Positions 9 to 47,292 of a stretch of 64,000 nt of DNA are shown piece after piece. Position 1 is the first letter of the stretch. The number at the start of each line of letters is the position of its first letter. The notes below the pieces were generated by a model. It was not told the origin of the DNA. It was given only the letters and a program-made list of their open reading frames with translations, and did no database searches. Where the stretch lies: positions 1 to 64,000 of the forward strand of contig MCFE01000333.1 of assembly GCA_002104905.1 (NCBI GenBank), written 5' to 3'. The position numbers and the translations under genes were made by a program. This DNA is from Basidiobolus meristosporus CBS 931.73. Its lineage: Eukaryota; Fungi; Basidiobolomycota.

Positions 9-1100
9 ATGCATTGGCATAACCTGCTGGGATACGCTGCAGAGAAACGGCTTTACTATCTGATCAATCACGGAAGCTCGCCCGACGGTATCAAACACCC
101 TCCCCTCCGACCCCTCAACATCGAAAGAGACTTCTATACCATTATGAAGCAAGCCAACGAACGTATGGCCCGTCAGTGTCCACTCGATGCAAGCCGCTTG
201 GCCATGTATCAAAGTCCAGGAGACGTGTTCCAGTCAGACAAACAAACAAAATCCCACCAGTATTCAGACCAAGTTCAGAACGTGGTTTACGAGGCCCGGA
301 GAAATGCCCTCCATGCCTTGGCCGAGGGACTCCAGAATGGCACGGACCATATTGAGACCATGTTGCTTATTGACGTCTCCGGCTCGATGGGTTGGAACCC
401 TCATCAAGGCGTCACAGGCCCCGACGGCGTTGTTCGTTATCATGATCAACCTCCCAACATATGTCTTGTGGAGCACCTTGTCCACCGTGTCCTGAATCAC
501 ATGATCCCCCGCGCGCAACGAGAGCATCCTAACCAAGTCGGGATTGATACTGTCACATTCTCTAGAGCAGGCCGCTATATTGGTCAGTTATCTGCCAAGA
601 ATTTCCAACGAGATTGGAGAAATGGTATCTCCATCGGAGGTGGCACCCAAGTCATGCAAGGCTGGCAGGTAGTCAAGGAGACATACTTTCAGCATCAGAA
701 CAAGAACTATGGACACGGACGATATGATAGCGTCTATGGTTGGCAGCCTACACCCGGGATGCCGAAATTGTCCCTTCTTGTGTTTCTAGACGGTGAGGCC
801 ACAGATATGGACGAATTTGAACTGGAGCTTCTTGGCGAGACTTGGGCGTATGTCACGGTCGTGTTGGTCGGAATGGAAAACTGTCCCCACCATCATGCCC
901 ATGCTATCGAGCTGGAACGTGTGGCGAGATTCAATCCGCATATTGGCTTCTTTGATGTCCATGGGCGTGTCTGCGAGCGTATGGTTGTGGAAGAATTGTT
1001 GGCTTCAGTGTATCCCGTGGATCCACCCAAATACGATGAAATATTGAGGCCAGAGTTTGACTTACCGGCTGATGCCCCTCCAGTGTATTCAGCTTTGTAA
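9..1100 (+). CDS. von Willebrand factor type A (VWA) domain protein, 363 aa, single exon
   Basis: Uninterrupted ORF. It has a MIDAS motif LLIDVSGSM (DxSxS), then TVTFS, GGGT, LLVFLDGEATD and VTVVLVG in the order expected for a VWA Rossmann fold. CpG content is normal, unlike the rest of the window, and the ATG has an A-rich context. Confidence 0.85.
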   Translation: MHWHNLLGYAAEKRLYYLINHGSSPDGIKHPPLRPLNIERDFYTIMKQANERMARQCPLDASRLAMYQSPGDVFQSDKQTKSHQYSDQVQNVVYEARRNALHALAEGLQNGTDHIETMLLIDVSGSMGWNPHQGVTGPDGVVRYHDQPPNICLVEHLVHRVLNHMIPRAQREHPNQVGIDTVTFSRAGRYIGQLSAKNFQRDWRNGISIGGGTQVMQGWQVVKETYFQHQNKNYGHGRYDSVYGWQPTPGMPKLSLLVFLDGEATDMDEFELELLGETWAYVTVVLVGMENCPHHHAHAIELERVARFNPHIGFFDVHGRVCERMVVEELLASVYPVDPPKYDEILRPEFDLPADAPPVYSAL

Positions 1101-3120: not shown

Positions 3121-3397
3121 TGTTGTAAAAATTTGTAATTCCACCTAAATATTCACCTAACTTAGTCACTTAGATCATTACCTTCAAATCCCAGAGAATA
3201 CTGACCAAATTTCTTGTTGGGATTTACTTAGAATATTTTCACCAAAATACCAGGTACCCAAAACATGAAAATTCTTAAAGTTGTCCAAACAGCCCCAAAC
3301 TTTGCACACATGTTCTTGGGACCTTCCTTATTCTATTCTACATGTTTGTTATGCCAAGACCATGTAAAAGTATAAATACTACTTTTACCCTCATAAA

Positions 3398-3747
3398 TGT
3401 TGTAAGAGTCTTGGAGATATTGGAAGTGATTTGGAGAACAAGTAGATTATGTGGTTTTCACTTAATGATTTATTGAATGTAAAAGTGGTATTTATACTTT
3501 TACCTGATCTTGGCATTACAAACACGTAGAATAGGTTAAGGAAGGTCCCAAGAACATGTGTGCAAAGTTTGGGGCTGTTTGGACAACTTTGAGAATTTTC
3601 ATGTTCTGGGTACCTGTTATTTTGGTGAAAATATTCTAAGTAAATCCCGACAAGGAATTTGGTCAGTATTCTCTAGGATTTAAAGGTGATGATCTAAGTG
3701 ACTAAGTTAGGTGAATATTTAGGTGGAAAATACAAATTTTTACAACA
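3398..3747 (-). repeat. 3' LTR of the copia element
   Basis: TGTTGTAAGAG...TTTTTACAACA, adjacent to the PPT (CTCCCACTCAG at 3748-3758, i.e. TGAGTGGGAG on the minus strand). Confidence 0.95.
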
Positions 3748-3758
3748 CTCCCACTCAG

Positions 3759-6700
3759 CTAAATGTTCATACTGACTAGTCCTAATTTTGACCTAAGATA
3801 TTCAAACTTGTCTCTTGCTAATGGTTTGGTAAATATGTCTGCAATCATTTCATCTGTAGGACAGTAAACTAAGCTAACTAAGTTATTCTCTATAGCTTCT
3901 TGTATGAAATGATGTCTAATATCTATGTGCTTGGTTCTAGCATGAAAAGTTGGATTTCTACCTAATTGTATACATCCTTGATTATCTTGAAATAAAGTAA
4001 TAGGCGTTTTTTGACATAGGCCTAAATCTGTAAACAGCTTTCTTAACCACATTGCTTCTTTTGTAGCTTCACAGGCTGCCATATACTCTGCCTCTGTAGT
4101 AGAAAGTGCTACAGTTGGTTGCTTTCTTGAATTCCATGAAATTGCTCCTTTACAGTAAAGAAAGGTGTATCCTGTGGTGGATCTTCTGTCTTCTAAATTT
4201 TGTCCCCAATCAGCATCAGAGTATCCCGCAAGATCCTGTTCTGAATCCTTATAAGTGTATCTTAAGCAGATATCAGCAGTTCCTTTTAGGTATCTAAAAA
4301 TCCGCTTAACTGCTGCAATATGATCAGATCCATAATTCTGATTATGTTGGCTGACAACTCCCACTGAATATGAGATATCTGGACGTGTTCCAAGCATGAT
4401 ATACATCAGACTGCCAACCATAGATTGATAAGGAAAGTCAGGGCTTTCAGATGGCACCAAGCTCTCTTGATTTGGTTGAGTTTTGACCAAGTTAAGGTTT
4501 GTCTCCATTGGGGTAGCTGCTGGTTTACAGTCCTCCATTTTGTACTTCTTTAGTATATCTTAAATATACTTGGATTGGCTTAGGGTAATAGTCTGGGTAC
4601 TTCTGTCTATGGAGAACTTAATCCCTAAGTAGTAACTGAGTTCTCCTAGATCGGACATCTTGAACTCCTTAGATAGGCTGGATTTAGTCTCTTCCAATGT
4701 TTCTAGGTTATTGGCGGCTATAATAAGATCATCCACATATAGAGCTAATAGAACTGGATTTGCTCTATCTGGCTTATAGTATATACTATAGTCAGCATTA
4801 CTCCTTTTGAAACTCAAAGATTCCAAATAAGAATCTATCTTGCAATTCCAGGCTCTTGGTGATTGTTTGAGACCATATAGTGACTTTTTAAGCTTGCAGA
4901 CCAAATGGGGGTTATCTTGGTCAACAAACCCATCAGGCTGGTCCATATACACGTCCTCATCAAGTTCTCCATTCAAAAATGCAGTTTTTACATCCATTTG
5001 ATGAATAAAAAACTTATATTTGGCTGCAATAGCCAATATTAATCTGATGGAATTAAACTTGGCTACCGGTGCAAAGGCCTCAGTATAGTCAAGTCCTTTT
5101 GTTTGAGAGTATCCTTTGGCTACAAGTCTTGCTTTGTATCTTTCAATTGTACCATCAGCCTTGTATTTTGTCTTGAAGACCCATCTGCATCCAATTGATT
5201 TTCGGTTGATTGGTAATTTGACTAAGTCCCAAGTTTGATTTTCCATCAGGGCCTGATATTCCTCAGTCATTGCAGATCTCCAAAACTTTGTCTGAGAGCT
5301 ATTTAGGGCCTCTTTTACAGTCTGGGGTTCATCAATATTTACTGAATAGGCATAGGCTAAGTTTGAACCCTCATTAATATAGTAATTTGGGCTATTTCTT
5401 GTCCGATTTGATCTCCGGGCATTTGATACTGGAATGATCACTTCTGGGATATTCCTGGGCACTGATTCTGGCTGAACCATGGTTGTAGAGTCCTCTGGAG
5501 TGAAAAAATTTTCATTGTTTTGCTCTGATTCAATCCTGACAATTGGTGGACTTGAGATCAAATTTTCGTCATCATCTGATGTCATTTTTTGTGAAAATTT
5601 TGAATTTTCATCAAACAACACATCCCTGGACTTGATAAGCTTCTTTGCTTTGGTATTGTAGAGTCTGTATGCCTTACTCTCATTGCAGTAGCCCAAAAAT
5701 ATGCATTTTACACTTTTTGGCTCAAATTTTGACTGATTTCCGGCCAGTTTTTTGGCATATGCTGTGCACCCAAATATTCTTAGATGATCTGCACTTGGTC
5801 TGTATCCATACCATGCTTCAAATGGAGTAGAATCACAAAGTATTCTGTTATAACTCCTATTTTTAAGATATACAGCAGTGGCAACTGATTCCACCCAAAA
5901 ATCATAGGATAATTTTTGATCATGGATCATAGAGCTTGCCATATCAATTATTGATCTGTTAGCTTGTTCTGCTACTCCATTTTGCTGTGGGGAGTATGGT
6001 ACAGTAGTCTCTTGCTTTATCCCATGAATTTTGCAGAAGTGGATGAAGAGTTTTGAGGTATATTCTCCACCATTGTCAGAGCGTATTTTCTTGATTTTTT
6101 CACCAGTTTCTCTCTCCACCATGGCTTTAAACTCCCTGAGCTTAGACAGAGCTTCTTCCTTTCTCTCCATGAAGTAGACCCATGTGTATCTTGTATAATC
6201 ATCAAAAAAGTGATCAAATACTTCATCCCACCTAAGGATAAATTTTGCATAGGTCCACACAGATCTGAGTGAATTAGATCTAATTTTTTCTTAGTTTTGA
6301 TTAACCCAGAGCTCTTGAACAGTTGTCTGGCTTGTTTCCCATATATGCAGGCCTCACAGTGCTCCAAATTAGCTGGGGGATCAATTTTCACTCCAGAAAT
6401 TAGCTGATCTTTGACCACTTTACGCAAATAATCAAAATTGATGTGTCCAAATCTCCTGTGCCAAAGCATTGGTGTTTCTTCATTTAAGTTACTTAAATTG
6501 GCTTCCAGATATGATGGAATATAAGTCAACTTGTATAGATTCTGATCTCTGATGCCTGAAGCAATATGGGCACCATTTTGATCAGTGATCCTGCATCCAG
6601 AATTGTCAAAACTGAAACTGAGTCCTTTTGCTTTGGCCTTGCTTACAGAGAGTAGGTTCTTGGCAATTTCTGGCACATAGAGTACTTCTTTAAAGGTCAG

Positions 6701-7702
6701 TGTATGGCTTCCTTCACTGCTTCTAAGGTTTACTTGGATAGTTCCTTCTCCCACTGCATCAAGTGTTCTATCGTCACCCATGAAAACCTTCTTAATTGGA
6801 ATTTCTTGATATTGGGTAAAAAGTTCTTTTTGGTGTGTAAAGTGTTGAGAAGCTCCAGAGTCAATATACCACGTCTGAGAATCCTTGTTTGTGGTCATAT
6901 TTAGTGCAGATGTGAATAGTCTATCTTCAGTTGTTGCAGCATTTCCATATTCAGGCTTCTTTTGCTGATTATCTTTCTTTTTGAGACACCGGTCTGATGT
7001 GTGTCCTTTCCTTTTGCAGTAGTTACAAAACAGGTTGCTGTTGTCTTTGTAGGGTCTTGGGTATCTCCTTTGTTGGCTATCATTGCTTATTAAAGCATTT
7101 TCTTCTTCCTTCTTATTAGCGCTTGATTTTCTTAATTCTTCATCCAGGAGCCTTCCCTATATGTAACTTAAGGTCATATCTTCAGTTCTGGACTCTAGGG
7201 CTGATACAAGGCCCTGAAACTCGTCTGTCAGGCTATTCAGGATGGTAACTATCACATCCTCATCAGTAGTTGGTACGCCCACAGATTCCATCTCATCTAC
7301 CAGCAGGGTAATTCTGTTAATTAGATTTTTCATTTCTTCTCCTGGCAGCATCTTTGTAGTAAAGAATTTTCGTCTCAGATACATTTTCTTGGCAGCTGAA
7401 CATGACTAGTAGGTGTCTTCCAATGCTTTCTAGGCATTCCTTGCCGTTTTTGCTCTTGAGCATTGAATTAGCAATTTGTCCTTGACATTAAGGCAAATGC
7501 AGTTAAAGGCACTTTGCTCTTTCTTCTGGTACTTTAAGGCTTCCTCTCCCACGTTTTTAGGAGGGCATTCTTCTCCCATGACAATATCCCAAAGGCCTCT
7601 TTCTTGTAGCAGCATCTTCATCTTCACCTTCCACACTTGGTAGTTAGAGCCATCCAACTTTTCAGCAGAGGGAAAAATTCCAGTAATAGCAGTAGTAGAC
7701 AT
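3759..7702 (-). pseudogene. Copia gag-pol polyprotein with a few stops and frameshifts
   Basis: Gag LDGSNYQVWKVKMKMLL, CCHC knuckle, protease WYIDSGASQH, integrase LWHRRFGH...CEAC...HSDLCGP...RSDNGGEY, RT HQMDVKTAFLNG and LYVDDL, RNase H GYSDADW...TRKHIDIR-like. Confidence 0.95.
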
Positions 7703-7718
7703 TGCAGAGTGACAGCTC

Positions 7719-7731
7719 GGGCCTCATAACC
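7719..7731 (-). promoter_or_regulatory. Primer-binding site of half-tRNA(iMet) type
   Basis: Minus strand reads GGTTATGAGGCCC directly after the 5' LTR. A GGTTATGAGCCC-like motif sits at the same position in four other copia copies. Confidence 0.7.
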
Positions 7732-8081
7732 TGTTGTAAGAGTCTTGGAGATATTGGGAGTGATTTGGAGAACAAGTAGATTATGTGGTTTTCACTTGAT
7801 GATTTATTGAATGTAAAAGTGGTATTTATACTTTTACCTGGTCTTGGCATTACAAACACGTAGAATAGGTTAAGGAAGGTCCCAAGAACATATGTGCAAA
7901 GTTTGGGGCTGTTTGGACAACTTTGAGAATTTTCATGTTCTGGGTACCTGTTATTTTGGTGAAAATATTCTAAGTAAATCCCGACAAGGAAATTGGTCAG
8001 TATTCTCTAGGATTTAAAGGTGATGATCCAAGTGACTAAGTTAGGTGAATATTTAGGTGGAAAATACAAATTTTTACAGCA
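7732..8081 (-). repeat. 5' LTR of the copia element
   Basis: 343/350 identical to 3398-3747 by manual comparison. Confidence 0.95.
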
Positions 8082-8699: not shown

Positions 8700-10860
8700 T
8701 TGCTGTAAAGATACTGTCCCTATGAAAAATAATATGGCTCTGCAGGTGAGTTAGTTCCCAATCAGTATCAGGATCCCACAATGAGTCTGTCATCATGCCA
8801 GCAGCTTCAAATTATTGACCCTCCACACCATCTATGACAGGATTGTGATGTTGTTTTGCTGATTTACTGCCAAATTAAGCAAGATGAAGTAGAAATGAAT
8901 ACAGTGGTGGCAGAGATCTACACATTTTGCTATATACAGGTAGTATAGACACTCAAATCCTGTCACAAACTCCTTGTATAAAAGCTGTAGATGCGTCAAG
9001 GTGGCATTGGTGCTCTGCTGCTGAATAAATATGCCTACAATGTCAAAATATGACACCCAATGCTTCCTATGTACTCTTAGCATATATGGCCTCAGAAGGC
9101 CACTTGAATAAATACATAAGTAGTATCCAGTTGGAAAGCATACAAGGTTCATCCAGTATTGGATACAGGTAGTTATCCAGGTGGGACAGTTACTTAGGCC
9201 CAGATACCAGTAAGATTACCATCTGATATCTGCTCTGATACTGTAAGATAGGTGGCTGATTCAGGTTGATGAGAATCAGCTGCTAGCAAGATTTACTGGC
9301 AGAGTAGCTGTAGGATAAGAATCCATCAAGTGCAAAGGCAAAGACATGATCATACATACCTTCAGAGTAGCCCTTACTTCTTTGTTGTTTGTAATGTTTC
9401 CATTGAGTCCATTTGAAATGTTTGCATTTGATTGATACTGAGTGTGGTACTTTATAGCTTCAAAATATTTGCTGGACTGCATGAGCTTCTTTAGACAGGG
9501 TATTACTAGAACATATCTGGAGTGTAAACAATGCTTTCCTCTTATGGTGGCTGATTCCTGACAAGTTGGAAACCTTTCAATAGTGGCATTTGTGATGCAA
9601 ATGCCATGCAATTATTAGTACATGTGGGTATCAGGGCAGTCCATGGGTCAAATGTTGCCAGCCACATGATGGTTGACCATTTGTACCATGTACATGGTAA
9701 GTTGCATCTGGGAATGATTTTAGCAAGAAGTAGGAGTAAATCTGCAGAGCGCCTATTACTGATATTAGTGGGAACACACCACTTCTCTAGCCACAACATT
9801 GCAACACTCACCAGTAGATGTATTTCTTGGCTCACTTGACTCCATAAAGTATCCTTGGCATTTTATTCCATTGCAGTTGTCATATTGCATATTGTGATTT
9901 TGCCAGGCTCATGCAAGGCTCTATTGTTAGGGAAGATAGGCTCACAATCCATCAGTGTGCCATCTTCTTCAGAGCTATCACTCTGAGTGCCATATTCAGA
10001 AGGCTGAGGTGAGCCTAAAGTTGTCACAAACTCACCTGACTCAGTTTGTGCAAGGTGACAAGTACAGCTAGGTGCCTTTGTAAAAGTATCAAGTAGCCAG
10101 CAAGATATTGTGGGTACAGTAGTGATTGATGAATGATCAAATATGACTTGTGTGGCAAAACTCTGGCTGTGATCATTTTAATACTTCATATGCTGTCTGC
10201 ATGCTTTATGACTGACAGGCTTGTTACATTAGCCACTTGGTCTTTTTCTCTTCTTTTACAGCATTTAATCATAGTAATCTTCTTCATGGGGCAAACAATT
10301 TGACACACAATAATGTGACACTGTTACATCACTTTTTTGTCCATACTCATGTGAGTTTAAGACTATCTTTTATTTAAGACAATGAACCTACACAAATGTC
10401 ATGTTCAATGATGACCTGCTATGGTAAGCATTATGAATACAGTTGTGGCACCACATACACACTTATATGTAATACTATTTCCCCTTTGGTTGGACTCACT
10501 TCTTGATATATGCTGCCAAAAAATAAAACAAAGCCATCTGGTCCCCAACCAAGCCCCACTACTGACAGCAGCAGCATTGGTTGGATAACAGCTTGCTTTG
10601 ACATTTGGCACAACAAGCAAAGCTACATCCAAAAAAGGCAAGATTGACAGTGTGCCCACTGAAGATAATAATGTGGACTCCTCAGGCTCTTAGTAAAGTA
10701 GAAAAATAAGAATCTCTGCAGAGCTGTAAGCTGACCCTAATACCCAGGAAGATGAGAATGCAGTAAACATAGTACCTTTGGCTGAAAACCAGTATGTGGC
10801 CTTCATGATATCACTACTACCCATATTAGCAAGTATGTTGTCAGCTCATACCATAGCATT
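8700..10860 (-). mobile_element. CACTA/EnSpm fragment: internally deleted transposase (-, ~8700-10090), spacer, and N-terminus of gene Y (+, ~10520-10860)
   Basis: Tnp2-type motifs FVTGFECLYY...VDLCHHCIH and DP.TALIP.C.N.CMAF...CPTC. 10100-10860 matches the reverse complement of 54330-55080. Confidence 0.75.
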
Positions 10861-19790: not shown

Positions 19791-19844
19791 CTATATGTGA
19801 CACTATATAAAACAAGTAGTAGGGAGTAGATTTTGGCATCTCTA

Positions 19845-20285
19845 ATATTTACAAATCTAAATTGTAGTTACTGAATTAGAGAATTTATAAAATACAAATG
19901 CAATTGCACTATACAAAATCAACTGCAAGGTGCAAATTTTTATATCTTTAATATTTTACAAAGCTGGAGCATATTTACCAGATTGGGGAATTTATAAAGA
20001 TCCAAATTCACTGACACAATATATAATAAGTAACAAGAAGCAAATAATTGTATCTTTAACAATTTACAAAGTTGGGTTGCAGTTACCAGATTATTGAACT
20101 TTTAAAGATACACATTTTGTAGCACTATACAAAATAAGTAACAAGGAGCAAATAATTGTATTGGATTAGAGAATTTGTAAGATGCAAATACAGTGGCACT
20201 ATACAAATTCAACAACAGGATGCAAATTAGTGTATCTTTAACAATTCACAAAGTTGAGTTGTAGTTACCAAATTAAATAGATGAT
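19845..20285. repeat. Degenerate tandem repeat with ~108-bp period
   Basis: T(A/G)TATCTTTA at 19941, 20049 and 20231; GCACTATACAAA at 19906, 20122 and 20196. Spacings are 108, 216 and one shortened 74-bp unit. Confidence 0.75.
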
Positions 20286-20437
20286 AATATACAAATCTGC
20301 TGACCTTGTGCAAAAGTTGTTTCAAAAGTTTAAACCAAATGATTTGAGTAGGCTTAAATAATTCTGTAAAGACTTTTTTGCAAACTAAATTCGAAAACCA
20401 TGTTAAAATATTGAATATTAAAATTCAACTTTGAAAT

Positions 20438-20472
20438 TCAAATATCAAACATCAAATATCAAATATCAAAAT
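20438..20472 (+). repeat. Heptamer tandem repeat (TCAAATA)x5
   Basis: TCAAATA TCAAACA TCAAATA TCAAATA TCAAAAT. Confidence 0.8.
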
Positions 20473-20719
20473 TGTAAAAACTTTTTAAGTCACAAGAGGT
20501 TACTTAAGACTTCAAGTTTGGTTGGGAAAAAGTTTAAACCATATTAGTATCCAAGAAAAAACCTTTTAAACAAAGTTTACTCAGAGTTGAAAATAATAAA
20601 CAATCTAAAAAAGCTGTTACACAAGACATCTATATCAAAAAGTAGTTTGGAATAATTAATGTGTCGTGACAAGCATACTCATCTTGTAACTTATACAGTT
20701 TGTGTTTGTTCTAATTTTT

Positions 20720-22560
20720 TTACATATTGTTCAGCCTTTTCATTGATCTAACCATCTGTTTAATATATTTATCTTCACCCAATGTTCCCAACAAATAATC
20801 TATTTGAGACATAATTTGATGTTCCATATAATACAAAGGATTGACTTCTAATTCTTCTATTCTTGCCAATTCTTATGAATATACATCTTTTCACCTGGTT
20901 TATCACCCAAAGCTGTAAAAACATATTCTAATCTGGTGCCAGCATTTACCTTTATATTATTAGCTATTAATCATTCAGCCATGACAATTTAAGGGGGTTT
21001 GACTTTGTATTCATCTAGATTTTTAACAGATTTAGTGATGCTCAAAAGATCAATGGGAATATTTTACTCAGACAATCTGTAATATGTTTATTAACATTAG
21101 AAATAATCTGAACTTTGGGAAATTGTTAACCATATTGGTAATAGTAGTACTATAGAGATCTTTTGCAAATTGGCAATATCCTTGTTGGGCATTCATAACA
21201 CCCTTGTATTTAAGAGTGTGATTCTTGTACATAATATATCTCTTTTTAGACATAAGAATAATTATGTCATAGTATTCTTTAAAGTTAATTGCCATAGGTT
21301 GAGGAAGCATACGGGTACCATCTTTGCAAATATCATGGCACAGTTGGATATAATTGGATGCAGGGATAGGAGAAGTAGGAATAATCAGGCAGGAATCAGT
21401 GTCACCATAAATAACTCTGACTGGATAATTACAGGATATATGAGTGACAATCTGATCCAAATATTTTCTACCCATACAGGAAATAGATTCAACACGACCC
21501 AAATGGCTAAAATATTTATTCTTTTCAAAGCCCATGTTTGACACAATATTTCCCAACAAGACTCATCTGAGACAGGTTCAAGGATTTGAAAGCATCTCAT
21601 ATTTCTTCACAATGGATGTCATCTTTGTCAACACCTAAAAGTTTTTCAGAGACAAAATGTGAACTGTATTTTTTGAGTTTAAAACATTTAAGGTAAAGCA
21701 TAAGATCAACAATCAGGCACCATTCATTTCCACTTTGCAATAAGTGTTATAACCACATGCGCTACTTTCCCAATCTGCATGAACTCCATTAGTAGAGCCA
21801 TTAATAAGTCACAACATATTTTGGACAGGCTCTAAATAAAAGCTTAATTGTTCAAAGACATATTTAAAATCAAAGCCATGAGTATTTTATCCAGTAATAA
21901 TATCTGGATCTAAAGTTTGGACAAGAGAGCCTAACTTTTGAAGAAGCTCAACCTTGGTAGAGAAAAAAAGTTGGGAGATATTATCATTGGCAGGTTCATC
22001 AAAAGGTAGATTGGCAATAAAGAGGAGATTATTATCAAGTTTGCTAGACATGTAATCAGTCATAACAATACTAATCATCTCAAGCTTATTACCAGGTTTG
22101 TAAGTTTTGGGCATTCCAGAGTTAGCAGAGACCATTCATTCAATATTAAATGCCATAACTGATGGGAAAGTGGGCTTGTTACCATCAATGGGTGATATTT
22201 TTGTTGAATGACAAACATGCTAAGTTAGGAGATGGGTAATAGAGTTGCTGGGTTTGGTGTAGGCATCTTTAATCTGGACCCAACCAACAAAGGCAAGGCT
22301 GTATTTAGATGTAAAAATTGGAATACATTCAAATTTGTACATATAACATATAAATGAGGTAGCACATTGAACAAATTCTTTCATGTGCAAATAGTTTATG
22401 AAGTAATAATAATAAGAAATTTTTTATTTTTAATGGCAAGAGATGTTAGCATATAAACATCTTGGATGTTAAAATAAGCAATGTCATGATATTAGCAGAT
22501 GTCTTTAACTTCAGCAAGAGAAAGAAAAATATAACACCAAGGTTTAAGCCCATAAATAAC
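20720..22560 (-). pseudogene. polB: Family B DNA polymerase (RNA-primed type), intronless and decayed; probable large-DNA-virus origin
   Basis: Minus-strand translation across stops and frameshifts gives, in order: N-terminal YGLKPWCY, GWVQI, ExoI VMAF(N)IE, ExoII DPDIITG*NTHGFDFKY, VDL...KLKKYS..VSEKLLGVDKDD, ExoIII GKYCVK, ESISCMGRKYL, motif C VIYGDTDS, KKRY, and thumb SITKSV...YKVKPP...GTRLEYV...NPLYYMEHQI. Confidence 0.9.
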
Positions 22561-22616
22561 AAGTAGAATAGTTTAGTTGATACTTTTAGCATATCTGTTG
22601 ATACTTATGGGAGTGT

Positions 22617-23373
22617 TGTGGTGGTGTATAGGTCCAAGGGAAAGATACGTCCAACACTTCTCAAGTGTTTTGTGTGTGGGGTGTTCACTGGGTGCAATAA
22701 CCTCTGGCAAAAGCTTGCTAGGAATACCTGGGTTCTGTTTCTAATCTAATGTGAAGAGGAATAAAGCTCAAGCTTGTCAAGGGAAAACTATTGAGCTACA
22801 ATCCCCAACTTAGTTGGCGTCTTAACAAAAGTATGTGCTGGGTTCAGTGTCCTTTGAGATGACAATGTACTAAAGCTTCCAAAGTCAAAACAACTGTAAA
22901 CTCCACCAGCAGGGACTAGATAAGAATGCAGCTGTGGTCAATAGTTACAAAGACAGAAAAGTATCTTTGCCTGTGCAAGAACAAACTTGGGAAAGAATCA
23001 AATATAATAAAAGATACCTACTCTGAGTATTCCTCACAAGTAGTGCCTCCAAGGTCAGTTGGCTGTTAGTGTGGTTTCCTGGGAGTGTCCTGTGGTTGGG
23101 GTTGGAAGTTCAGGTGGCGGCAGGTAGCAGTGATCACACTAATCAACAAGTTGGTATATTGATAAAAGGGATGATGATTTATTGTAGAGGGATAGCCTCC
23201 CTTATATACTTTTCTCACTGGCTAAGTGATTACTAATCATGGTGTTCCAGAAGGTTCCGGATATCAATAGAAATATTAATGACATCAGAATGACCTAAGA
23301 ATGCTCTAAGTAGGTGCTGGAAGGTTCTAGGAGGCACAGCACATCCAACAAATCAGAAATCAGTATATGAAGC
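22617..23373 (+). repeat. Family Z LTR, 3'-truncated
   Basis: Starts TGTGGTGGTGTATAGG and is colinear with 26979-27720; breaks into CACTA sequence at about 23374. Confidence 0.85.
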
Positions 23374-24835
23374 TGTTCAAATCCCATCACAAACTCCTAA
23401 CATAACAGCTGTAGATGCGTCAAGTTGGCATTAGTGATCCACTTCTGGATAAGTATTCCTACAATATCCACATATGACTCCCAATGCTTCCAATGTACTC
23501 TTGGTAGGAATGGCTTCAGTACGCCACTTGAATAAATACATACCCAGTTCATCCAGTCTTTGCATTTGTATTGTTGCATATGTGTAAGAATATTGATTGG
23601 AGCCTATGAGAAGTACTTAGGGTAGCAGATACTCTGTAATGTCTTGCCAATTCTTTCAAATTTCTCCGGTATCTCAAAGGGCTCATTTAGCTTGAAATGC
23701 CCCATGTACAACATGTCATCAGTAAAGGGATATTGTTGAAAAGCAAATGTATTGCTCCCAGTGGAAAGCTTTCACACCAACACATACCTTCTATCTTAAG
23801 TATCTCTGGTTTCCAAGTGATTGCATATTCCAGTCAATGGCTTATAGCTTGCCAACTTTGATGCAATTGCATGCTGACTTCTGTTTGCTCTCTCTGTGGA
23901 AAGATGATGTTCTTAGTGCTGGTGTTTGGGTAATAATAATGTGCACAAGTTATGGAGTATATCCCCTGGATCCTACACATTTGACAGCAATACCATCAAT
24001 TGTGCCCAGAATAAACTGCTATCTTCCTAATGGCTGGGGTGTCTCCAATGCAGATAATAATATGCACTTTTTTATGACAACCTTTACTTTTGTCCTGCTG
24101 GAAAGCATAGAAAATTCATCCAGCAATGGATACATGTAGCTACCCAGGTTGGACAGTGATTTAGGCCCAGATACTGGTGAGACTACCATCTGATTATTGC
24201 TCTGATATTGTAAGATGACAGCAGAGTCAGATTGATGAGAATCAATGGCCAGCAGGATATGCTGGTTGAGTACTTGTTTAATGAGAATCTATCAAGTGCT
24301 AAAGCAAAGGCAGGGTCATACATACCTTCAGAGTAGCCCTTGCTTCTTAGCTTTTTGTAATATTTGACATGAAATATGTTGGATATGTCTGTGCTTGATT
24401 GATACTGGGTACAGTACTGTAGAGCTTTGCAATATTTGTTGGACTGCATCAGTTTCCTCAGACAGGCTATGACCAGAATACATCTGGAGTGTGAACAATG
24501 TTTTCCCTCAGTGGTGGTGGATTCCTGACAATTTGGACACATTGTAATGGTAGCATTTTTGGATATGAATGCCATGCAGCTGTTAACATATGCTGGAATC
24601 AGGGCAGTTTCTGGATCATATGTTGCCAGCCACATGATGATTGTCCACTAGTATCATGTACATGATAAGTTGCATCCTGGTATGATTTTGGCAGGAATTA
24701 GTAATATATCCTCAAAGCCCCCATTACTAATATTAGTGGAGATGTGCCACTTCTCTAGCCACAACATTACTTCATTCACCAGTATATGGATTACTGGGTT
24801 CACTTGGCTCCATAAAGTATCCTTGGCATTTGTGA
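23374..24835 (-). mobile_element. Degenerate CACTA transposase
   Basis: YKCKDWMNW..YSSGVLKPFLP..HWKHW, KVHIIICIGDTPAI-like, GHN...YPC..C, and DPETALIPAYVNSCMAF...CPNC. Confidence 0.85.
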
Positions 24836-25320
24836 AGGGATCAGTACCTCTTAGTCACAGGACTTTAACTTTGTGATGGCCTTTTGATGCGATTATCTCA
24901 ATAACTCCTCACAGGGATACATGGAAGTCAGTCAAGCCAAAGGGGAAATGGGGTTACATATATGTGTGCATGTGGTGTCACAACTGTATTGATAATGCTT
25001 ACTATGACAGGTGATCATTGAATCTTACATTCATGTAGGTGCAATGTCTCAAACACAAGACAGTCTTGAATTTACATGAGTATTGATAAAAAAGTGACAT
25101 AATAGCATTATGTTGTTGAGTGACCAACTATTTGCCCCATAGACAAGACTACTTTAATTCAACGCCATAAGAGAAGAGTAAAAATACCATATGGCTATTG
25201 TAGCAAGCCTCTCAGCCATAAGTTTGCATATAGCATAGGAAGTATTACTAGAATCACAGTCAGTGTTTTGCCACATAAGTCATATTTTACCATTCACCAG
25301 TTACTATTGTACCAACAATA

Positions 25321-26021
25321 GACTTGCTTTGTTGGATAGTGCAACCTTGAGCCATTGAGTGCCAAATGATGCCAAAGGGTGCCAGGAAGGCCAAGTGTAC
25401 CTATACTTGGCCACAGAGTGTGAAACATAGTTATACATTCTCATGCAGAGCAGCCCCTGTGTTTCACCCATTGTGTGGAAGAGAATTTGTTTTTTGACCT
25501 TTTTTTGCAATCATCATTGTGCAAGATGTACATAGGCACAGAAGAGCTGAGGACATACATCTGGTACTCAATACCCATGGCACTCTGAACCTAGCTCCTG
25601 TAGCTTGTTACATGCCACAAAAATGCATGGCATTGTCTTGGTCCACTAGCACTATCTGCCACTATATTTATATATCAGCCCAAAGTAAAACCTATACAAG
25701 TCACATATAGTGCCATGCATTTTTGTGAAATGTTACAAGCCACAGGAGCTAGATTCAGAGTGCCAGCAGTATTGAGTATCAGATGATTGCCTTCAGCTTG
25801 TCGGTCCTCCTGCAAATTATGCCAACATTTATTACAAGAAGAAGGGCAAAAAATGGACTTTCTCCATCACAATGGGTGAAACACATGGGCTACTTTGCAT
25901 GAAGATGAAGTTCTATATTTCACATTCCATGGTCATGTATAAGTGCACCTGGCCTACCTGGCACACTGTGGCAGCACTTGGCACTTATGGCTCATTGTGG
26001 CACTATCCATAAGAACAAGTC
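25321..26021. mobile_element. Foldback MITE with very long TIRs and TA target duplication (701 bp)
   Basis: TA|GACTTGC...ACAAGTC|TA. The left ~320 bp is the imperfect reverse complement of the right ~320 bp around a short spacer, and the flanks rejoin as CACTA sequence. Confidence 0.85.
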
Positions 26022-26978
26022 TAATATGTTGCTGGATGCCTGATATTTCTATGAAGGCACCTAGGTATACTTGTCACCTTGCACAAGCTGAGTCAGGTGA
26101 GTTTGCAACACCTTTAGGTTCACAACAGCCTTATGAATGTGACATGCAGAGTAATAGCTCTGAAGAAACAGGCTCCCTGATGGATTGTGAGCCTATCTTC
26201 TCTAGAAACAGTACCCCGCATGAGCCTGGCAAGATCCATTTATGCAATGTGACAACATCCATGGAAAAAAATGTCAAGGGTACTTTATGGAGTTGAGTGA
26301 GCCCAGTAAGCCATCTACTGGTGAATGTGATGTTGTGGCTAGAAAAGTTGCTTGTTTCCACTAATAGTAGTAATGGTGGCTTCAGGATTTACTACTACTT
26401 CTTGCCAAAATTATACCAGGATGCAACTTACCATGACACTTAATGGATTTTCATTATACAAGTACTCTACCAGCCAATCATGCTGGCCACTAATTCTCAT
26501 CAACCTGAATCTGCCATCTATCTAAAGGTTTTGGAGCAGAAATCTGATGGTAGCTTCACTGGTATCTGCACCTAAATCACTGTCCAACCTGAGTAGGTAC
26601 CTGTATCCATTGCTGGATGAATTTTGTATGCTTTCCTGCTGGATAACAGTAAATGGTTGTCATGTAAAAGCGCATATTATTATCTGCATTGGAGATACCC
26701 CAGCCATCCACAGTATAGCCTACATTTCTGGGCACAAAGAGTGGTATTGCTGTCAAATATGTGAGATCCAGGGGACTTACTCCATAACTAACACACATTA
26801 TTATAACCCAAACACCAACACTAAGGACACCATCTTACCGCAGAGAGAAGACACAGAAGTTGGCATGCAATTGCAGCAAGACTGGCAAGCTCAAAGCTAT
26901 TGGCTGGAATATGGAATTAGTTGGTGACTGGAGATACTAAGATAGAGGGAACCTGTTGGAGCAAAAGCTTTCTACTGG

Positions 26979-28008
26979 TGTGGTGGTGTATAGGTCCATG
27001 GGAGAGATATGTCCAACACTTCTGGGGTGTTCACTGGGTGCAATAACTTCTGGCAAAAGCTTGATAGGAATACTTGGGTTCTGTGTCTAATCTAATGTGA
27101 AGGGGAATAAAGCCACAAGCTTGTCAAGGGAAAACTATAGACCTACAATCCCCAACTTAGTTGGCATATTAACAAAAGTATGTGCTGGGTTCAGTGTCTG
27201 TTGAGATGACAATGTACTAAAGCTTCCAAAGTCAAAACAACTGTAAACTCCACCAGCAGGGACTTGATAAGAATGCGGCTGTGGTCAATAGTTGCAAAGA
27301 CAGAAGAGTATCCTTGCCTGTGCAAGAACAAACTTGGGAAAGAATCAAATATAATAAAAGATACCTACTCTGAGTATTCCTCACAAGTAGTGCCTCCAAG
27401 GTCAGTTGGCTGTCAGTGTGGTTTCCTGGGAGTGTCCTGTGGTTGGGGTTGGAAGTTCAGGTGGCAGCAGGTAGCAGTGATCACACTAATCAACAAGTTG
27501 GAATATTGATAAAAGGGAAGATGATTTATTGTTGAGGGATAGCCTCCCTTATATACTTTTCTCACTGGCTAAGTGATTACTAAGCATGGTGTTCCAGAAG
27601 GTTCCGGATATCAATAGAAATCTTAATGACATCAGAATGACCTAAGAATGCTCTAAGTAGGTGCCCAAAGGTTCTAAGAGGCACAGCACATCCAACCAAT
27701 CAGGAATCAGTATTCTGAAACCTGTGTAACATAGGAAATGGTAGGGATGGTGAAATGGGTTGATCATGTGTCACGGGTACTGGCGCGGGTACTTGCCTAA
27801 TATAGAAGCACTTATAGCATGTAATCTGACATAAAGTGAGGGGTAACTTATGCAATAAGGTAAGCAGGTGTGATAGTCAACCGGCTTATGGGATAGAACT
27901 GATTGGGTAAGACAAATGGGATAAAAATAAGTGTAGTAGAGGTATAGGGAAGTAGAAAATAAGGGAATGAGCACATCTGACAGTGGGTGCCACTGTCACC
28001 CCACTACA
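26979..28008 (+). repeat. Solo LTR, family Z (1030 bp)
   Basis: TGTGGTGG...CCACTACA with flanks CTGG and CTAG (4-bp TSD, one mismatch), inserted in a CACTA transposase. Confidence 0.85.
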
Positions 28009-29404
28009 CTAGGAGCAATGCATTTGCTGTGCAACAAGATCCCCTTATAGAAGACTAAGTTGTAAGTTAGTCCATTTCAAGCCAAAAGAGACCTTTGAGA
28101 TACTGGAGAAATTTCAAGAAAATGGCAAGATGTTACAGAGCATCTGCTGCACTAAATACTACTCACAAGATCCAATCAAAATTCATATGCATATGCAACA
28201 ATACCAGTGCAAGGACTTGACAAACTGGACATTTACATAATCATGCCACCTTCTGAAGCCAATTCTACAAGTAGTACATTGGAAACATGAGGGGTTATAT
28301 GTGAACATTGTAGGAATATTTCTCTAGAAGCAGTTCACCATTGCCAACTTGACACATCTACAGCTTTTGTGCAAAGCATACATGAGAGGATTTGAGCAGC
28401 TATACTACAAATATAAGGCTGGGAGTGTAGATCTCTGCCACTACTGTATCCATTAGCTACCACTTCTGGCTTGGTGTGTAGAGAATATTGAGTTGTGCTT
28501 CACCTTTTGAGAGTTACCCATGCAGCAGATGTGTGGGGATATTGGATGAGAGGTCAATTTCTACATTGTTCAACATGGAATTTACACAAACAAAAGCCAA
28601 AATGCACCTATAAGGGGGACTAGAATCCGGCAGGGAGAAGGAATAAATTGGCTCAATACCAAAAAAGCTCTTTGTGGATATTCAGGAGGTGTTGATGGCA
28701 GAAGTGGTGGCTGCTAATCATATGTTTGCAAGATGTATGTGTTACCAGCAGTATAAGGTATATGGCAGCTTTGCAAGTATTCCACTAAAAAGCCATAAAG
28801 CTGAGGTGATAGAAGTGTGTCCATTGTGGCAGGTGTGTATGTTTGCAGTGGTTAGCAAGCAGGAGGCCAAAGTATTTTTTGATCCAAGCTATTTGTGGAA
28901 TACCCAAGGTAGTAGTGAGTAAGGAAATAAAGAGGGGCAATTCTACAATGGAATATGTGAATTGCTCAAGGGAAGGTAGAAAAAGAAAATATCACTTAGT
29001 AAATTGGTACAGCAGCATTATGCAGAACCAGCTGTAGGCTACCATAGTGCGGTAACAATACCGTCACAGGCCCACAATGAGGCCATCAAAACGCCATAAA
29101 GTTAGTAGCCATTTATGGCTATTGGATGCACTGGCTGTCTAGATCCAATCAAATAGCTGTTGAGCACACTACAAATACAACATTGCCATGCCACCCTTGC
29201 CTAAACACCACACAAACACCAGTATGTTTTTTAACTTAAATTGGCTGTAAAGTTAGTCAAATGCTGCTGTAATCCCATCATATGATTGTGTAGATAGTCA
29301 TTAATTCCAAATTGCTGGTATTATAGCGGTCTCCTGATAGGATCTTGACAGCCAATCCAGATTGGATCCACCTGTGGGTCCAAATTATTTTTCATAGGGT
29401 TCAG

Positions 29405-35109: not shown

Positions 35110-37761
35110 GGTCTTGCGGGTGGATCCAATACAGATCATCCATCAAGATCCTGTTTAGAGACCATCATAATAACAGCAGCTTGGAATAAGTGACCCTCCT
35201 GACAATCTTATAACAAGATCATGACGGTGTTTTGCAAATTTTACAGCCAAATAAAGGAATAAAACTTGACAATTTTTGATTGGTGCTGTGACAATATTTG
35301 CATGGCACTGTTGCGGTCTTTCAGCGCTCTATTACTATTTTAAGTGGATCCACTTGGCCAGGACTTCCAATTGCCTTATATGACATGAAACTTAATGGTA
35401 TTTTAATGGCCTTGCAGCAAGACTCTGATGGCTTTTTCTTGGCAGTATGATGGCCTGCTGCTGATTCTGTATAATGCTACTGTACCAATTTACCAAGTGG
35501 TATTTCCTTTTTCCACCTCCCCTTGTGTAATTCATATATTCCACTGTAGAGTCACCTTTCTTTATTTGCTTACCCACTACTATCTTGGGTATTCCACATA
35601 TAGTTTGAATCAAAAAAAACTATGGCCTCCTGCTTACTAACCTCTACAAACATGCACACCTTCTGCAATTGACATACCTCTATCACCTCAACTTTATGGT
35701 TTTTTAGTGTGATACTTGCAAAGTTGCCATATACCTTGTACTGCTGGTAGCATATACATCTTGCAAACATATGCCTGGTTGTTGCCACTTCTGCCATGAA
35801 TACCTCCTGAATATTGGCAAAGAACTTCTTGGTATTTGGCCAATATATTCCTTCTCCCTACTGGATTCTATTCCCCCCTTATAGGTGCGCTCTGGCTTTT
35901 GTTTGTGTGAATTCCATACTGATTGGTGTAGAAGTTGGCTTGTGACCACAAGAAATCCGGCATATCTTGGTGGAGTTTTCCTGATAAAAACTAGTTGCTT
36001 GATGCACCCAACCCAACTTTGCATTACTTGAATGATTACTCACGCATTGGGGCTGCTTAGCTTCTTAATGCCATAGGCATACGTGTCCATGTGCACATTT
36101 GTCCGCAGTATTTTCCAACATTTTCTGGCTATCCTCCATGTGCCAACTCATCACATCCATGATGGACTTGAAGGTAATATTCTTGATGAGATTGGGATAT
36201 AGTAGTGCCTGCAACTTGACTTGTCTTCATATCTCCCCACACATCCGCTCCATAGGAAACTCCCAAAAGGTGAAGCAACGCCCAGTATTCATCACACACC
36301 ATGCAAGATGGAGTAGAGAATGGATACAGTAGCAGCAGAGATCTACACGTTCAGCTTTATGTTTGTAGTATAACCGCTCAAATCCTGTCACAAACTCCTC
36401 ACACAACAGCTGTAGATGTGTCATGTTGGCATTGGTGATCTGCTTCTGGATAAATATTCCTACAATGTCCACATATGACTCCCAATGCTTCCAATGTACT
36501 CTTGGTAGGAATGGCTTCAGGACACCACTTGAATAAACAAATATCCAATTCATCCAGTCTTTGCATTTGTATTGTTGTATATGCGTATGAATATTGATTG
36601 GAGCCCATGAGAAGTACTTAGGGTAGCGGATACTCTGTAATATCTTGCCAATTTTTTCAAAATTTTCCGTTATCCCACTGGAAAGCATACAAAATTCATT
36701 CAGCAATGGATACAGGTAGCTATCCAGGTTGGATGTTGATTTAGGCCCAGATATCAGTGAGACTACCATCAGATTATTCCTCTGATATTGTAAGATGACA
36801 GCAGAGTCAGATTGATGAGAATCAGTGGCCAGCAGGTTTTGCTGGTAGAGTACTAGTTTAATGAGAATCCATCAAGTGCTTAAGCAAAGGCATGGTCATA
36901 CATACCTTCAAAGTAGCCCTTGCTTCTTAGCTGTTTGTAATATTTGACATCAAATATGTTGGATATGTTTGTGCTTGATTGATACTGGGTACAGTACTGT
37001 AGAGCTTTGCAATATTTGATGGACTGCATCAGCTTCCTCAGACAGGCTATGACCAGAATACATCTGGAGTGTGAACAATGTTTTCCCTCAGTGGTGGTGG
37101 ATTCCTGACAATTTGGACACATTGCAATGGTAGTATTTTTGGATGTGAATGCCATGCAACTGTTAACACATGCTGGAATCAGGACAGTCTCTGGATCATA
37201 TGTTGCCAGCCGCATGATGGTTGTCCACTTGTACCATGTACATGGTAAGTTGCATCCTGGTATGATTTTGGCAAGAAGTAGTAGTAAATCCTCAAAGCCC
37301 CCATTACTGATATTAGTGAAAATGCACCACTTCTATAGCCACAACATTACATCATTCACCAGTAGATGGATTACTGGGCTCACTTGGCTCCAAAAAGTAT
37401 CCTTGGCATTTGTTTCAACAGGTGTTGTCTCATTGCATATAGGGATTTGACCGGGTCCATATGTGGCACTGTTGTTAGGGGAGATAGGCTCAAAATCCAT
37501 CAGTGAACCTTCTTTGTCAGGGCTATCACTCTGCATGCCATATACAGAAGGCTGAGGTGAGCCTAAAGGTTTCAAAAACTCACCTGACTCAGTTTGCGCA
37601 AGGTGACAAAGATGGCCAGGTGCCAATATAGAAGTATCAACTGCCGGCAAGATAATGTTGGTTCAGTAGTGATTAATGAATGGCCAAATATGACTTTAGT
37701 GGCAAAACACTGGCTGTGATCCTTGTAATACTTCTTATGCTGTCAGCATGATTCATGGCTG
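35110..37761 (-). mobile_element. Best-preserved CACTA/EnSpm transposase copy (internal deletion) plus 3' region
   Basis: ORF 36227-36769 contains ISGPKSTSNLDSYLYPLLNEF, HSLLHLA..V...G...FWEFPMERMCGEI (Tnp2/DUF4218-like). N-terminal CVNSCMAF...CPNC and DVKYYKQL...ALDGF are at 36880-37215. Confidence 0.9.
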
Positions 37762-45689: not shown

Positions 45690-47292
45690 AGATCTAAGTT
45701 GTTCTAGGGAAAACCTGTTGCTTGTTGCACTATACCAAAACTTGCATTACCTAATTGAACACTCCCACATTGGGGCTGCTTAGCTTCTTAATGCCATAGA
45801 CATAGGTGCCTCAGTGTGCACACTGTCCTCTGTATTATCCAACTCTTCCTAGCTGTCCTCCATGTAGCAGTTTATCAGATCTATTACAGACTTGAAGGTA
45901 ATATTCTTGATGAGATTAGAATATGGTAGTACCTGCACCTTGACTTGTCTTCCTATTTCCCAGACATCCACTCCATAGGAAACTCCCAAAAAGTGGAGAC
46001 AGGCCCAATATTCTCCGCACACTTAGCAAGATAGAGTAGAGAATGACTACAGTAGTAGCAGAGATCTATGCATTCAGCCCTATACTTGTGGTATAGCCAC
46101 TGAGATTCCATCACTAACTCTGCGCACTAAAGCTGTAGATGCATCACGTTGGCATTGTTGAGCTGTTTCTGGATGAATATTCCTGCAGTGTCTACAAATG
46201 ACTCCCAATGCTTTCAATATACTCTTGATAGAAATGGCTTCAGAAGGTCACTTGAGTAGATGAATATCTAGCTCATCCAGTCCTTGGACTGATGTTGTTG
46301 CATATGTATATGAATGTTGATTGGAGCAAGTGAAAAGTATATGGGTTAACAGACACTCTGTAATTTCTTACCAACTCTCTCAAATTTCTCTTGTATCTCA
46401 AAGGGCCCATTTAGCTTGAAATGCTCCATGCACAACTTGATCATCAGCTTAGGGATATTATTAAAAAAGTAAATGTATTGGTCTAAGTGGAAACTAGACA
46501 ACAATACTGTCCATTGGGCCCAAAAGCTGGCTGTTTTACTAATGGCTGGGTATCTCCAATGTTGATAATAATATACACATGAATATGATGGCCATATATA
46601 GGTGTCCTGCCGGAAAGCATACAAGATTCATCCAGCAGTGGATAAGGTTAGCTTTCCAGGTTGTTTGGTAATCAAGGCCTTTCCTACAGTGGAATATTGG
46701 AGCTTTAATTGGCATATCAAGTGATTGCAGTTCTACTATTGCAAGGCTCAAGAAAACACACTTGAATATTGCAGGGATTTATTGCAAAGACAGGCACAGG
46801 AGGTGCTAGACCTTGCAATACCAGTGGAAGACCAGGACTATTGGGAACCAGTAAATGAACAGTGGCATGAAGCCAAAGGGGTCCTGTCAAAGTCAGGGAA
46901 AAGGGCATTACTGCCAAAATACTTACTCAACAGCGGACTTTAATGGAGTAACTTGCATAGAGTGGGGGTGGGCTAAATAATACAGTGGGGTATATGGACT
47001 TGTATACGCTAGTAAACTTGGCTATTGAGGTTTAATTGAAGTTTCAATGAAAATAAATTAATTGGTGTGCATGAAAAGTAAGAAAATTGGTTGCACCAGG
47101 AAGTAAGGAGTATGAAAAAGTGGTAGTAACTAATCTATACTCACAGATGTAGAAGATGCTCAGATGTCTGGTACCAGAAGGTGAGAAAATTGGCAGACAC
47201 CAATCAAAAGGCACATAGATATTGTTAAAATGGATAATCTTGACTATGTTTTGTGTGAAATTTGGGGTGCAATTATTTTTAAACAATCTTTG
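45690..47292 (-). mobile_element. CACTA transposase C-half (-, 45690-46680) joined to gene Y C-terminus (+) and segment X
   Basis: KLCMEHFKLNGPFEIQEKFERVG and FWEFPME motifs; ENTLEYCRDLLQRQAQEVLDLAIP at 46725-46943. X continues on the far side of gypsy G2. Confidence 0.7.

What the first reader, a model, noticed from the sequence alone, without database searches (positions are those of the whole stretch)
20720..22560. Fossil DNA polymerase B of probable giant-virus origin buried among transposons
Seen: ExoI, II and III, YGDTDS, KKRY and thumb motifs of an RNA-primed family-B polymerase occur in order on the minus strand, with no apparent introns, in AT-rich DNA. The protein ends shortly after the thumb with no Cys-rich tail. 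Known: cellular Pol delta and zeta carry C-terminal CysA/CysB clusters and are highly conserved across fungi. Polinton polymerases are protein-primed with different motifs. Compact delta-like PolB without the Cys tail is the hallmark gene of Nucleocytoviricota, and endogenized large-DNA-virus segments are reported in early-diverging fungi. Inference: this is an endogenous viral relic. Segments such as WESSACGYN and KPP(Q)IVMAE(R)L...GTRLEYV recall NCLDV polymerases more than fungal Pol delta, but the family cannot be assigned by eye.
Basis: partly seen in the sequence, partly recalled or inferred. Interest (0 to 1): 0.85.

Follow-up and report, generated by a model that had tools for sequence, protein, structure and literature searches.

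The report
Dead giant-virus polymerase in Basidiobolus fungus
This is a broken DNA polymerase gene among transposons, closest to iridovirus- and marseillevirus-type viruses, that likely entered a Basidiobolus fungus genome from such a virus; a 2020 paper very likely already lists this same copy, so the locus itself is ordinary.

Summary
Real, viral, and very likely already published. A family-B polymerase pseudogene lies at 20720-22611 (minus strand) with nine stops and five frameshifts. Its nearest named relatives are from Basidiobolus. Trees place it in a clade of compact (~800 aa) polymerases within the group holding iridoviruses and Lausannevirus, and AU tests reject Pol delta and Pol zeta ancestry. 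Gong, Zhang and Han 2020 named this lineage 'fundsalphavirus'. Their supplement lists a B. meristosporus copy whose coordinates fall in frame on this relic's exonuclease piece, on a contig of the same length. Arginine-biased decay and CpG loss fit methylation-driven erosion (inferred). No other viral gene was found in the window. The more interesting lead lies outside the window. Intact relatives are common in metagenomes and carry a full cytoplasmic replication and transcription kit, yet no capsid or VLTF3 homologue was found in 24 loci. That bears on a question left open for moss relics in 2014. This scan earlier noted an RPB5 gene it assigned to the same lineage, in another fungal assembly.

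The parts
22414..22611 (-). N-terminal piece of the polymerase, two stops; the first ~14 codons are missing at the edge of a repeat
   Evidence: 30% identity to P0005 residues 15-80, E 2e-6; profile positions 25-71, weak at E 0.003
21719..22402 (-). 3'-5' exonuclease domain, ExoI and ExoII, four stops; the ExoI catalytic Asp reads Asn
   Evidence: 38% identity to P0004 residues 30-249; profile 79-287, E 7e-49; stops listed
21537..21716 (-). ExoIII piece in another frame, one stop
   Evidence: profile 289-348, E 9e-18
21535..21538 (-). Junction of an internal deletion of about 180 codons that removed motifs A and B
   Evidence: profile 349-528 uncovered; contigs of runs X1 and X2 span the junction, while other contigs of X1, X2 and X5 match only up to 21536 or 21537 and then run on unlike the window (table 8)
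21122..21535 (-). Palm piece with YGDTDS and KKRY; the open frame 21071-21535 is a called 155-aa protein
   Evidence: Pfam E 5e-14; 68% identity to B. ranarum P0003; 143 of 155 residues identical to B. meristosporus ORX96323.1
21054..21119 (-). Short frameshifted linker between palm and thumb
   Evidence: 59% identity to P0003 residues 205-226
20878..21063 (-). Thumb piece, two stops
   Evidence: profile 688-747, E 1e-18
20720..20872 (-). C-terminal piece and stop codon; no CysA/CysB tail
   Evidence: profile 755-793 of 794; translation
20276..20719 (.). AT-rich 3' flank, unique within the window; viral or host origin not resolved
   Evidence: unique segment 20276-22612; no hit below E 0.05 for 24 profiles of neighbour genes anywhere in the window
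22617..23366 (+). 750-bp high-copy LTR-like repeat abutting the 5' end of the relic; starts TG, no target-site duplication
   Evidence: four further copies in the window at 81-94% identity; ends compared; very high summed contig depth

Best explanation
This is a broken, non-functional DNA polymerase B gene that groups with 'fundsalphavirus' polymerases and likely entered the nuclear genome of a Basidiobolus fungus from a small iridovirus/marseillevirus-related (Pimascovirales-type) DNA virus or virus-derived element. Shown: the clade, the nine stops, five frameshifts and the deletion of motifs A and B, the absence of other recognisable viral genes in the window, and a neighbouring repeat cutting the 5' end. 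Inferred, in order: (1) the donor replicated in the cytoplasm, because intact relatives encode their own RNA polymerase, capping enzyme and D5 primase-helicase; (2) a piece of its DNA was captured in repeat-rich chromatin, with no integrase or target-site signature seen; (3) it was silenced by CpG methylation and eroded by C-to-T deamination like the transposons around it; (4) transposon insertions and deletions stripped its neighbours; (5) at least the palm-end frameshift predates a duplication, since a second B. meristosporus copy starts and ends out of frame at the same places. It does nothing today: without motifs A and B it cannot bind nucleotide or polymerise, and ExoI has lost its catalytic Asp (established B-family enzymology).
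For: Tree of 55 rows: relic with B. ranarum P0003 (99), inside a 20-row clade (99) with Bifiguratus, Linnemannia, Mortierella, Podila and Spizellomyces records, inside a 39-row group (100) with ISKNV, shrimp hemocyte iridescent virus and Lausannevirus. The FastTree of 314 rows has the same nesting. AU tests on a 25-row tree reject delta and zeta (references named). Bifiguratus P0041 lies on a 3,791-bp contig, the length given for the paper's Bifiguratus fundsalphavirus. The paper's second B. meristosporus copy is at 22315-21848 on a 92,759-bp contig; both ends are in frame with the exonuclease piece, and the called palm protein sits on a 92,759-bp contig. CpG observed/expected is 0.06 in the relic and 0.82 in the host gene at 9-1100, against 0.30-1.25 in the 19 environmental loci. 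Of 130 conserved columns 31 are changed, among them 6 of 9 Arg (Fisher p 0.006), all to CAA, TGA or TGT. Two runs of one sample hold the island with few differences and span the deletion; a run of a second organism holds relatives about 85-90% alike.
Against: No Pithovirus sequence was on hand, so the paper's sister relationship was not re-tested; deep branches joining the clade to its unnamed sisters have SH-aLRT 85-86 only. Methylation is inferred from composition; a paper search found no measurement for this fungus among 10 listed of 1,775 hits. No listed contig bridges the island into either flanking repeat (table cut, only the longest pieces shown). The best runs may be the window's own source. 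No whole genome is held, so copy number and other viral remnants were not surveyed.
Confidence: 0.93

Rival explanations
1. The donor was not a particle-forming virus but a capsid-less, plasmid-like cytoplasmic replicon derived from Pimascovirales, passed on inside fungal hyphae. This changes the nature of the donor, not the identity of the relic.
For: No major capsid protein, A32 ATPase or VLTF3 Pfam hit among 60, 29 and 16 proteins scanned from relatives' loci. These cover one whole 35,106-bp contig and positions 4,056-51,666 of a 51,666-bp contig. A five-sequence capsid profile and Lausannevirus VLTF3 find nothing below E 0.1 in 24 loci, while Pfam finds both genes in the Lausannevirus control. 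Of the best 120 relatives, 23 lie on contigs of 60-95 kb and none on a longer one (counted by eye). Moss relics of this lineage also lack capsid and packaging genes (PMC4083422, passages). Some relatives carry fungal HET domains.
Against: No contig is shown to be complete: the 35-kb contig begins and ends in a dispersed repeat, and the 127-nt terminal inverted repeat of G001 is probably an assembly artefact (k-mer length recalled). For repeated gene families only one or two members were scanned, and ORFs under 85-90 aa were left out of the Pfam scans. Lectin and lysozyme genes would suit a particle. Gong et al. report capsid and A32 hits in fungal genomes, not tied to this lineage.
Confidence: 0.35
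2. A chimeric assembly or contaminant: DNA of a co-occurring virus joined to fungal repeats.
For: The island is bounded by repeats, and no listed contig bridges either junction.
Against: Nine stops, five frameshifts and a large deletion; CpG loss equal to that of the flanking transposons; a second diverged copy with the same out-of-frame end in B. meristosporus and relatives in B. ranarum and a second sequenced organism.
Confidence: 0.03
3. A decayed processed paralogue of host Pol delta or Pol zeta.
For: Best solved-structure hits of the pieces include yeast Pol zeta, at E 1e-5 and 3e-3; no introns.
Against: Those hits are far weaker than hits to the compact clade (E 1e-63 to 1e-24). AU tests reject both placements. 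The frame ends at profile position 793 of 794 of a clade with median length 811 aa.
Confidence: 0.01
4. The 155-aa palm ORF is a domesticated fragment with a host role.
For: It is open and called as a protein in two copies.
Against: It lacks motifs A and B, ends out of frame, and carries the same Arg-to-Gln decay as the stopped pieces; the two copies differ at 12 of 155 residues.
Confidence: 0.02

Closest known systems
Fundsalphaviruses (Gong, Zhang, Han 2020, PMC7017919; main text parts 1-2 of 3 and supplement parts 1-2 of 7 read)
   Same: Same host genus, same clade anchor (Bifiguratus), stops and frameshifts, retrotransposon flanks; a listed B. meristosporus copy coincides in frame and in contig length with this locus.
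   Different: The paper's coordinates cover 468 bp of the exonuclease only; the palm, thumb, deletion and decay pattern are not described in the parts read.
NCLDV-like regions of the moss Physcomitrella patens (Maumus et al. 2014, PMC4083422; passages read)
   Same: Nested among fundsalphaviruses according to Gong et al.; silent and methylated; same core gene set as the environmental relatives; no capsid or packaging ATPase.
   Different: Clusters of up to 16 genes in a plant, against a single gene here. Moss sequences were not in my trees.
Iridoviridae and Marseilleviridae (ISKNV, shrimp hemocyte iridescent virus, Lausannevirus)
   Same: RNA-primed PolB without a Cys tail, in one group with the relic (SH-aLRT 100).
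   Different: Polymerases of 948-1129 aa and about 28-32% identity to P0004; Lausannevirus has capsid and VLTF3 beside PolB.
Mycodnaviridae (PMC13533422; passages read)
   Same: Giant viruses with relics in early-diverging fungi.
   Different: Affiliated with Algavirales and Imitervirales, defined by capsid genes; the authors call earlier fungal relics distinct and distant.
Zymocin-like cytoplasmic virus-like elements (PMC13348850; passages read)
   Same: Capsid-less cytoplasmic DNA elements with NCLDV-derived RNA polymerase, capping enzyme and helicase, present in Zoopagomycota and Mucoromycota.
   Different: They use a protein-primed polymerase; this lineage has an RNA-primed PolB with a D5 primase-helicase.

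Membership tests
Family-B DNA polymerase (RNA-primed) | ExoI-III, motif C YGDTDS, KKRY and thumb in order | tested here: met
Family-B DNA polymerase (RNA-primed) | Motifs A and B, needed for activity | tested here: not met
   deleted, profile 349-528: a pseudogene, not an enzyme
Fundsalphavirus | PolB groups with the listed fungal sequences | tested here: met
   clade support 99 with Bifiguratus P0041, whose contig length equals the listed one
Fundsalphavirus | Sister to Pithovirus sibericum | not tested
   no Pithovirus sequence was returned by any search; none of the six unnamed neighbours plus P0049 looked up was a pithovirus
Fundsalphavirus | Shared gene set D5, D6/D11 helicase, capping methyltransferase, RPB2, RPB5, split RPB1 | tested here: inconclusive
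   present beside the intact relatives but none in the window; the paper also lists solo polymerases
Nucleocytoviricota, Pimascovirales-type | PolB groups with iridoviruses and marseilleviruses, apart from other NCLDV and cellular polymerases | tested here: met
   39-row group, SH-aLRT 100
Nucleocytoviricota, Pimascovirales-type | Double jelly-roll capsid, A32 ATPase, VLTF3 | tested here: inconclusive
   not found in 24 loci of relatives, but no contig is known to be complete; the window was not searched for them directly
Eukaryotic Pol delta or Pol zeta | Placement in the delta or zeta clade; C-terminal CysA/CysB | tested here: not met
   p-AU 2e-6 and 3e-34; no Cys tail
Mirusvirus or herpesvirus PolB | Placement with Duplodnaviria polymerases | not tested
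   no named reference in the trees; herpes hits in the structure bank were weak, E 0.005
Endogenous element | Reads joining the island to host DNA on both sides | tested here: inconclusive
   contigs only; none listed bridges the junctions

The most novel reading that the evidence does not exclude
The relic is the fossil of a living, common and barely described group of compact (about 35-95 kb) Pimascovirales-derived DNA elements of fungi. They kept the whole cytoplasmic replication and transcription kit (PolB, D5, split RPB1, RPB2, RPB5, capping enzyme, TFIIS, UDG, FEN1, MutS-HNH), lost the capsid, and live as giant cytoplasmic plasmids, some carrying HET domains that could act on hyphal fusion. 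An undeleted copy may persist at low abundance in the same fungal sample.
Probability: 0.3. Interest if true: 0.75.

Novelty: already known. Interest (0 to 1): 0.22.

Why it matters
The locus adds little: the lineage and very likely this copy were published in 2020. What it adds is a full anatomy and a clear case of CpG-biased decay of viral DNA in a Basidiobolus genome. It also points to many intact relatives in metagenomes and in Mortierellaceae assemblies. Those make the 2014 question about the moss relics directly testable: was the donor a virus with a hidden or borrowed capsid, or a capsid-less replicon?

Tried and rejected
No whole genome is held, so the assembly-wide scan for capsid, A32, VLTF3 and RNA polymerase remnants could not be run. 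The exonuclease piece alone found no homologue by word search (0 of 334 candidates), and the palm piece none in viral contigs (0 of 12). The ESM Atlas gave only generic DNA_pol_B clusters. L089 and L098 matched the motif scan but fall outside the clade and were left out. The substitution count (40 of 137) included columns misaligned across the deletion and is replaced. The terminal inverted repeat of G001 and the end repeat of the 35-kb contig were rejected as proof of completeness. The capsid search by handle reached one 17-kb fragment only, 0 of 1. A profile of an unnamed 424-448 aa family found nothing in solved structures. PHROGs and NCBIfam named no structural protein convincingly. No RNA holder was listed. 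A closer second look at the junctions is lacking. 'Ariadnavirales' (listing only) was considered and dropped: by its title it loses the transcription systems that this clade keeps. 'fundsalphavirus' occurs in 1 paper of the library. Searches for a later description of the clade showed none in the listings, but most subscription journals are not held, and Fig. S6 of PMC13533422 is a picture that could not be read.

Full report
Observation. The window is CpG-depleted after its first 2 kb and 80% self-repeated, with Copia and Gypsy retrotransposon ORFs. The segment 20276-22612 is unique in the window. It holds a family-B polymerase on the minus strand: the open piece 21071-21562 hits Pfam DNA_pol_B at E 5e-14. 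Against full-length relatives the pieces are collinear from 22611 to a stop at 20720. There are seven stops in the five main pieces, two in the N-terminal piece, and five frame changes besides the deletion (frames). A profile of 100 relatives (794 positions) is covered at 551 positions. Positions 349-528, with motifs A and B, are missing. The 5' end stops a few bases short of a 750-bp high-copy repeat (22617-23366) with no target-site duplication.

Host and relatives. The called 155-aa palm protein clusters with B. meristosporus ORX96323.1 (143 of 155 identical), which starts at the same Met and ends in the same out-of-frame tail. The next relative is from B. ranarum (68%), then environmental polymerases of mostly 740-870 aa (40-59%; 27 hits among 96 candidates). 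A full-length relative finds 802 proteins at E 1e-20 or better; the best 120 include Linnemannia, Mortierella, Podila, Bifiguratus and Ramaria records. Spizellomyces, the alga Spirogloea and the amoeba Paradermamoeba also appear, so hosts may not be only fungi.

Placement. In a FastTree of 314 rows and an IQ-TREE quick tree of 55 rows chosen from them, the relic is sister to the B. ranarum protein, inside a clade of compact polymerases (99). That clade lies inside a group (100) holding ISKNV, shrimp hemocyte iridescent virus and Lausannevirus (named). Pol delta and Pol zeta references lie outside; on a 25-row tree AU tests reject holding the relic with either (p 2e-6, 3e-34). No Pithovirus, mirusvirus or herpesvirus reference was in the trees, and the branches joining the clade to its unnamed sisters are only moderately supported (85-86).

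Prior description. Gong, Zhang and Han 2020 (PMC7017919) report 'fundsalphaviruses', Pithovirus-related endogenous polymerases in 14 fungi, with moss relics nested among them. Table S1 lists three B. meristosporus copies. The second is at 22315-21848, in frame at both ends with the exonuclease piece here. It lies on a 92,759-bp contig among retrotransposon domains, the contig length recorded for this window's called protein. The locus is therefore very likely the published one. The third copy spans 2,385 bp beside MutS and helicase domains on a 33-kb contig, and may be full length.

How it decayed. CpG observed/expected is 0.06 in the relic, 0.82 in the host gene at 9-1100, and 0.30-1.25 in 19 environmental loci. 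Of 130 conserved columns 31 changed, with Arg over-represented (6 of 9, p 0.006) and every Arg change to CAA, TGA or TGT, as CpG deamination would give. Methylation itself is inferred. The moss relics are reported silent and highly methylated (PMC4083422). Contigs of runs X1 and X2 (one sample, possibly the window's source) span the deletion junction with 7 and 4 differences. Low-depth contigs of the same runs (depth 5.7 against about 100) and a contig of a second organism stop matching at 21536 or 21537 and run on in other sequence, as undeleted copies would. Contig depth is no measure of abundance, so this is a hint. No listed contig bridges the flanking junctions.

The donor. Nineteen loci found by a motif scan (17 in the clade) are gene-dense. 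They carry capping enzyme, D5, SF2 helicase, split RPB1, RPB2, RPB5, TFIIS, UDG, a FEN1-like nuclease and in places MutS-HNH, HET, lectin or lysozyme genes. This matches the gene set in Gong's Fig. S2. None of these neighbours is detectable in the window: tblastn hit only PolB, and 24 profiles gave a best E of 0.053. No capsid, A32 or VLTF3 was found by Pfam, including over a whole 35-kb contig and 47.6 of 51.7 kb of another. A home-made capsid profile found nothing below E 0.1 in 24 loci, while the Lausannevirus control was positive. Completeness is unproven and several ORFs are unnamed, so the capsid-less reading stays at about one in three. Maumus et al. already noted the same absence in moss.

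Verdict. Interest 0.22, carried mostly by the lead on the intact relatives.

Noticed in passing
window 9-1100 (+): A 363-aa open frame at 51% GC with near-normal CpG and a DxSxS motif like a von Willebrand A domain (label recalled). No Pfam or NCBIfam hit; the stop-to-stop sequence is not in the protein collection.
   Followed up: partly
window 3398-8031: Young Copia retrotransposon: terminal repeats 98% identical over 300 nt, long open pol frames. An inverted copy of part of the left repeat sits at 3139-3393.
   Followed up: no
window 19801-20275: Degenerate 108-bp tandem array just 3' of the island; viral or host origin unknown. Intact relatives also have repeat-rich spacers.
   Followed up: partly
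window 8800-9900, 23370-24900, 26000-28600, 36200-37600, 45950-46700, 61900-62600: Many decayed copies of one element that resembles an En/Spm (CACTA)-type transposase (label recalled; no Pfam hit for the pieces scanned).
   Followed up: no
P0180 / P0032: A clade polymerase of Spizellomyces sp. 'palustris' carries a RefSeq YP_ accession as well as a genome-assembly accession; from recall such a record may be filed as mitochondrial.
   Followed up: no
P0215, P0216, L083: Intact polymerases of Linnemannia and Mortierella lie on contigs of 36.7 and 34.9 kb and group with a 35.1-kb environmental contig. Seven of 120 relatives fall on contigs of 34.8-37.4 kb, a possible unit length.
   Followed up: partly
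L091:6218-7825, L096:10959-12812: HET (heterokaryon incompatibility) domains beside the polymerase in environmental relatives, also drawn for the Mortierella verticillata element.
   Followed up: no
P0042, P0244, P0249, P0262-P0264 and others: Several clade polymerases of 1,000-1,200 aa carry the extra Pfam domain PF14890 (an intein family, from recall).
   Followed up: no
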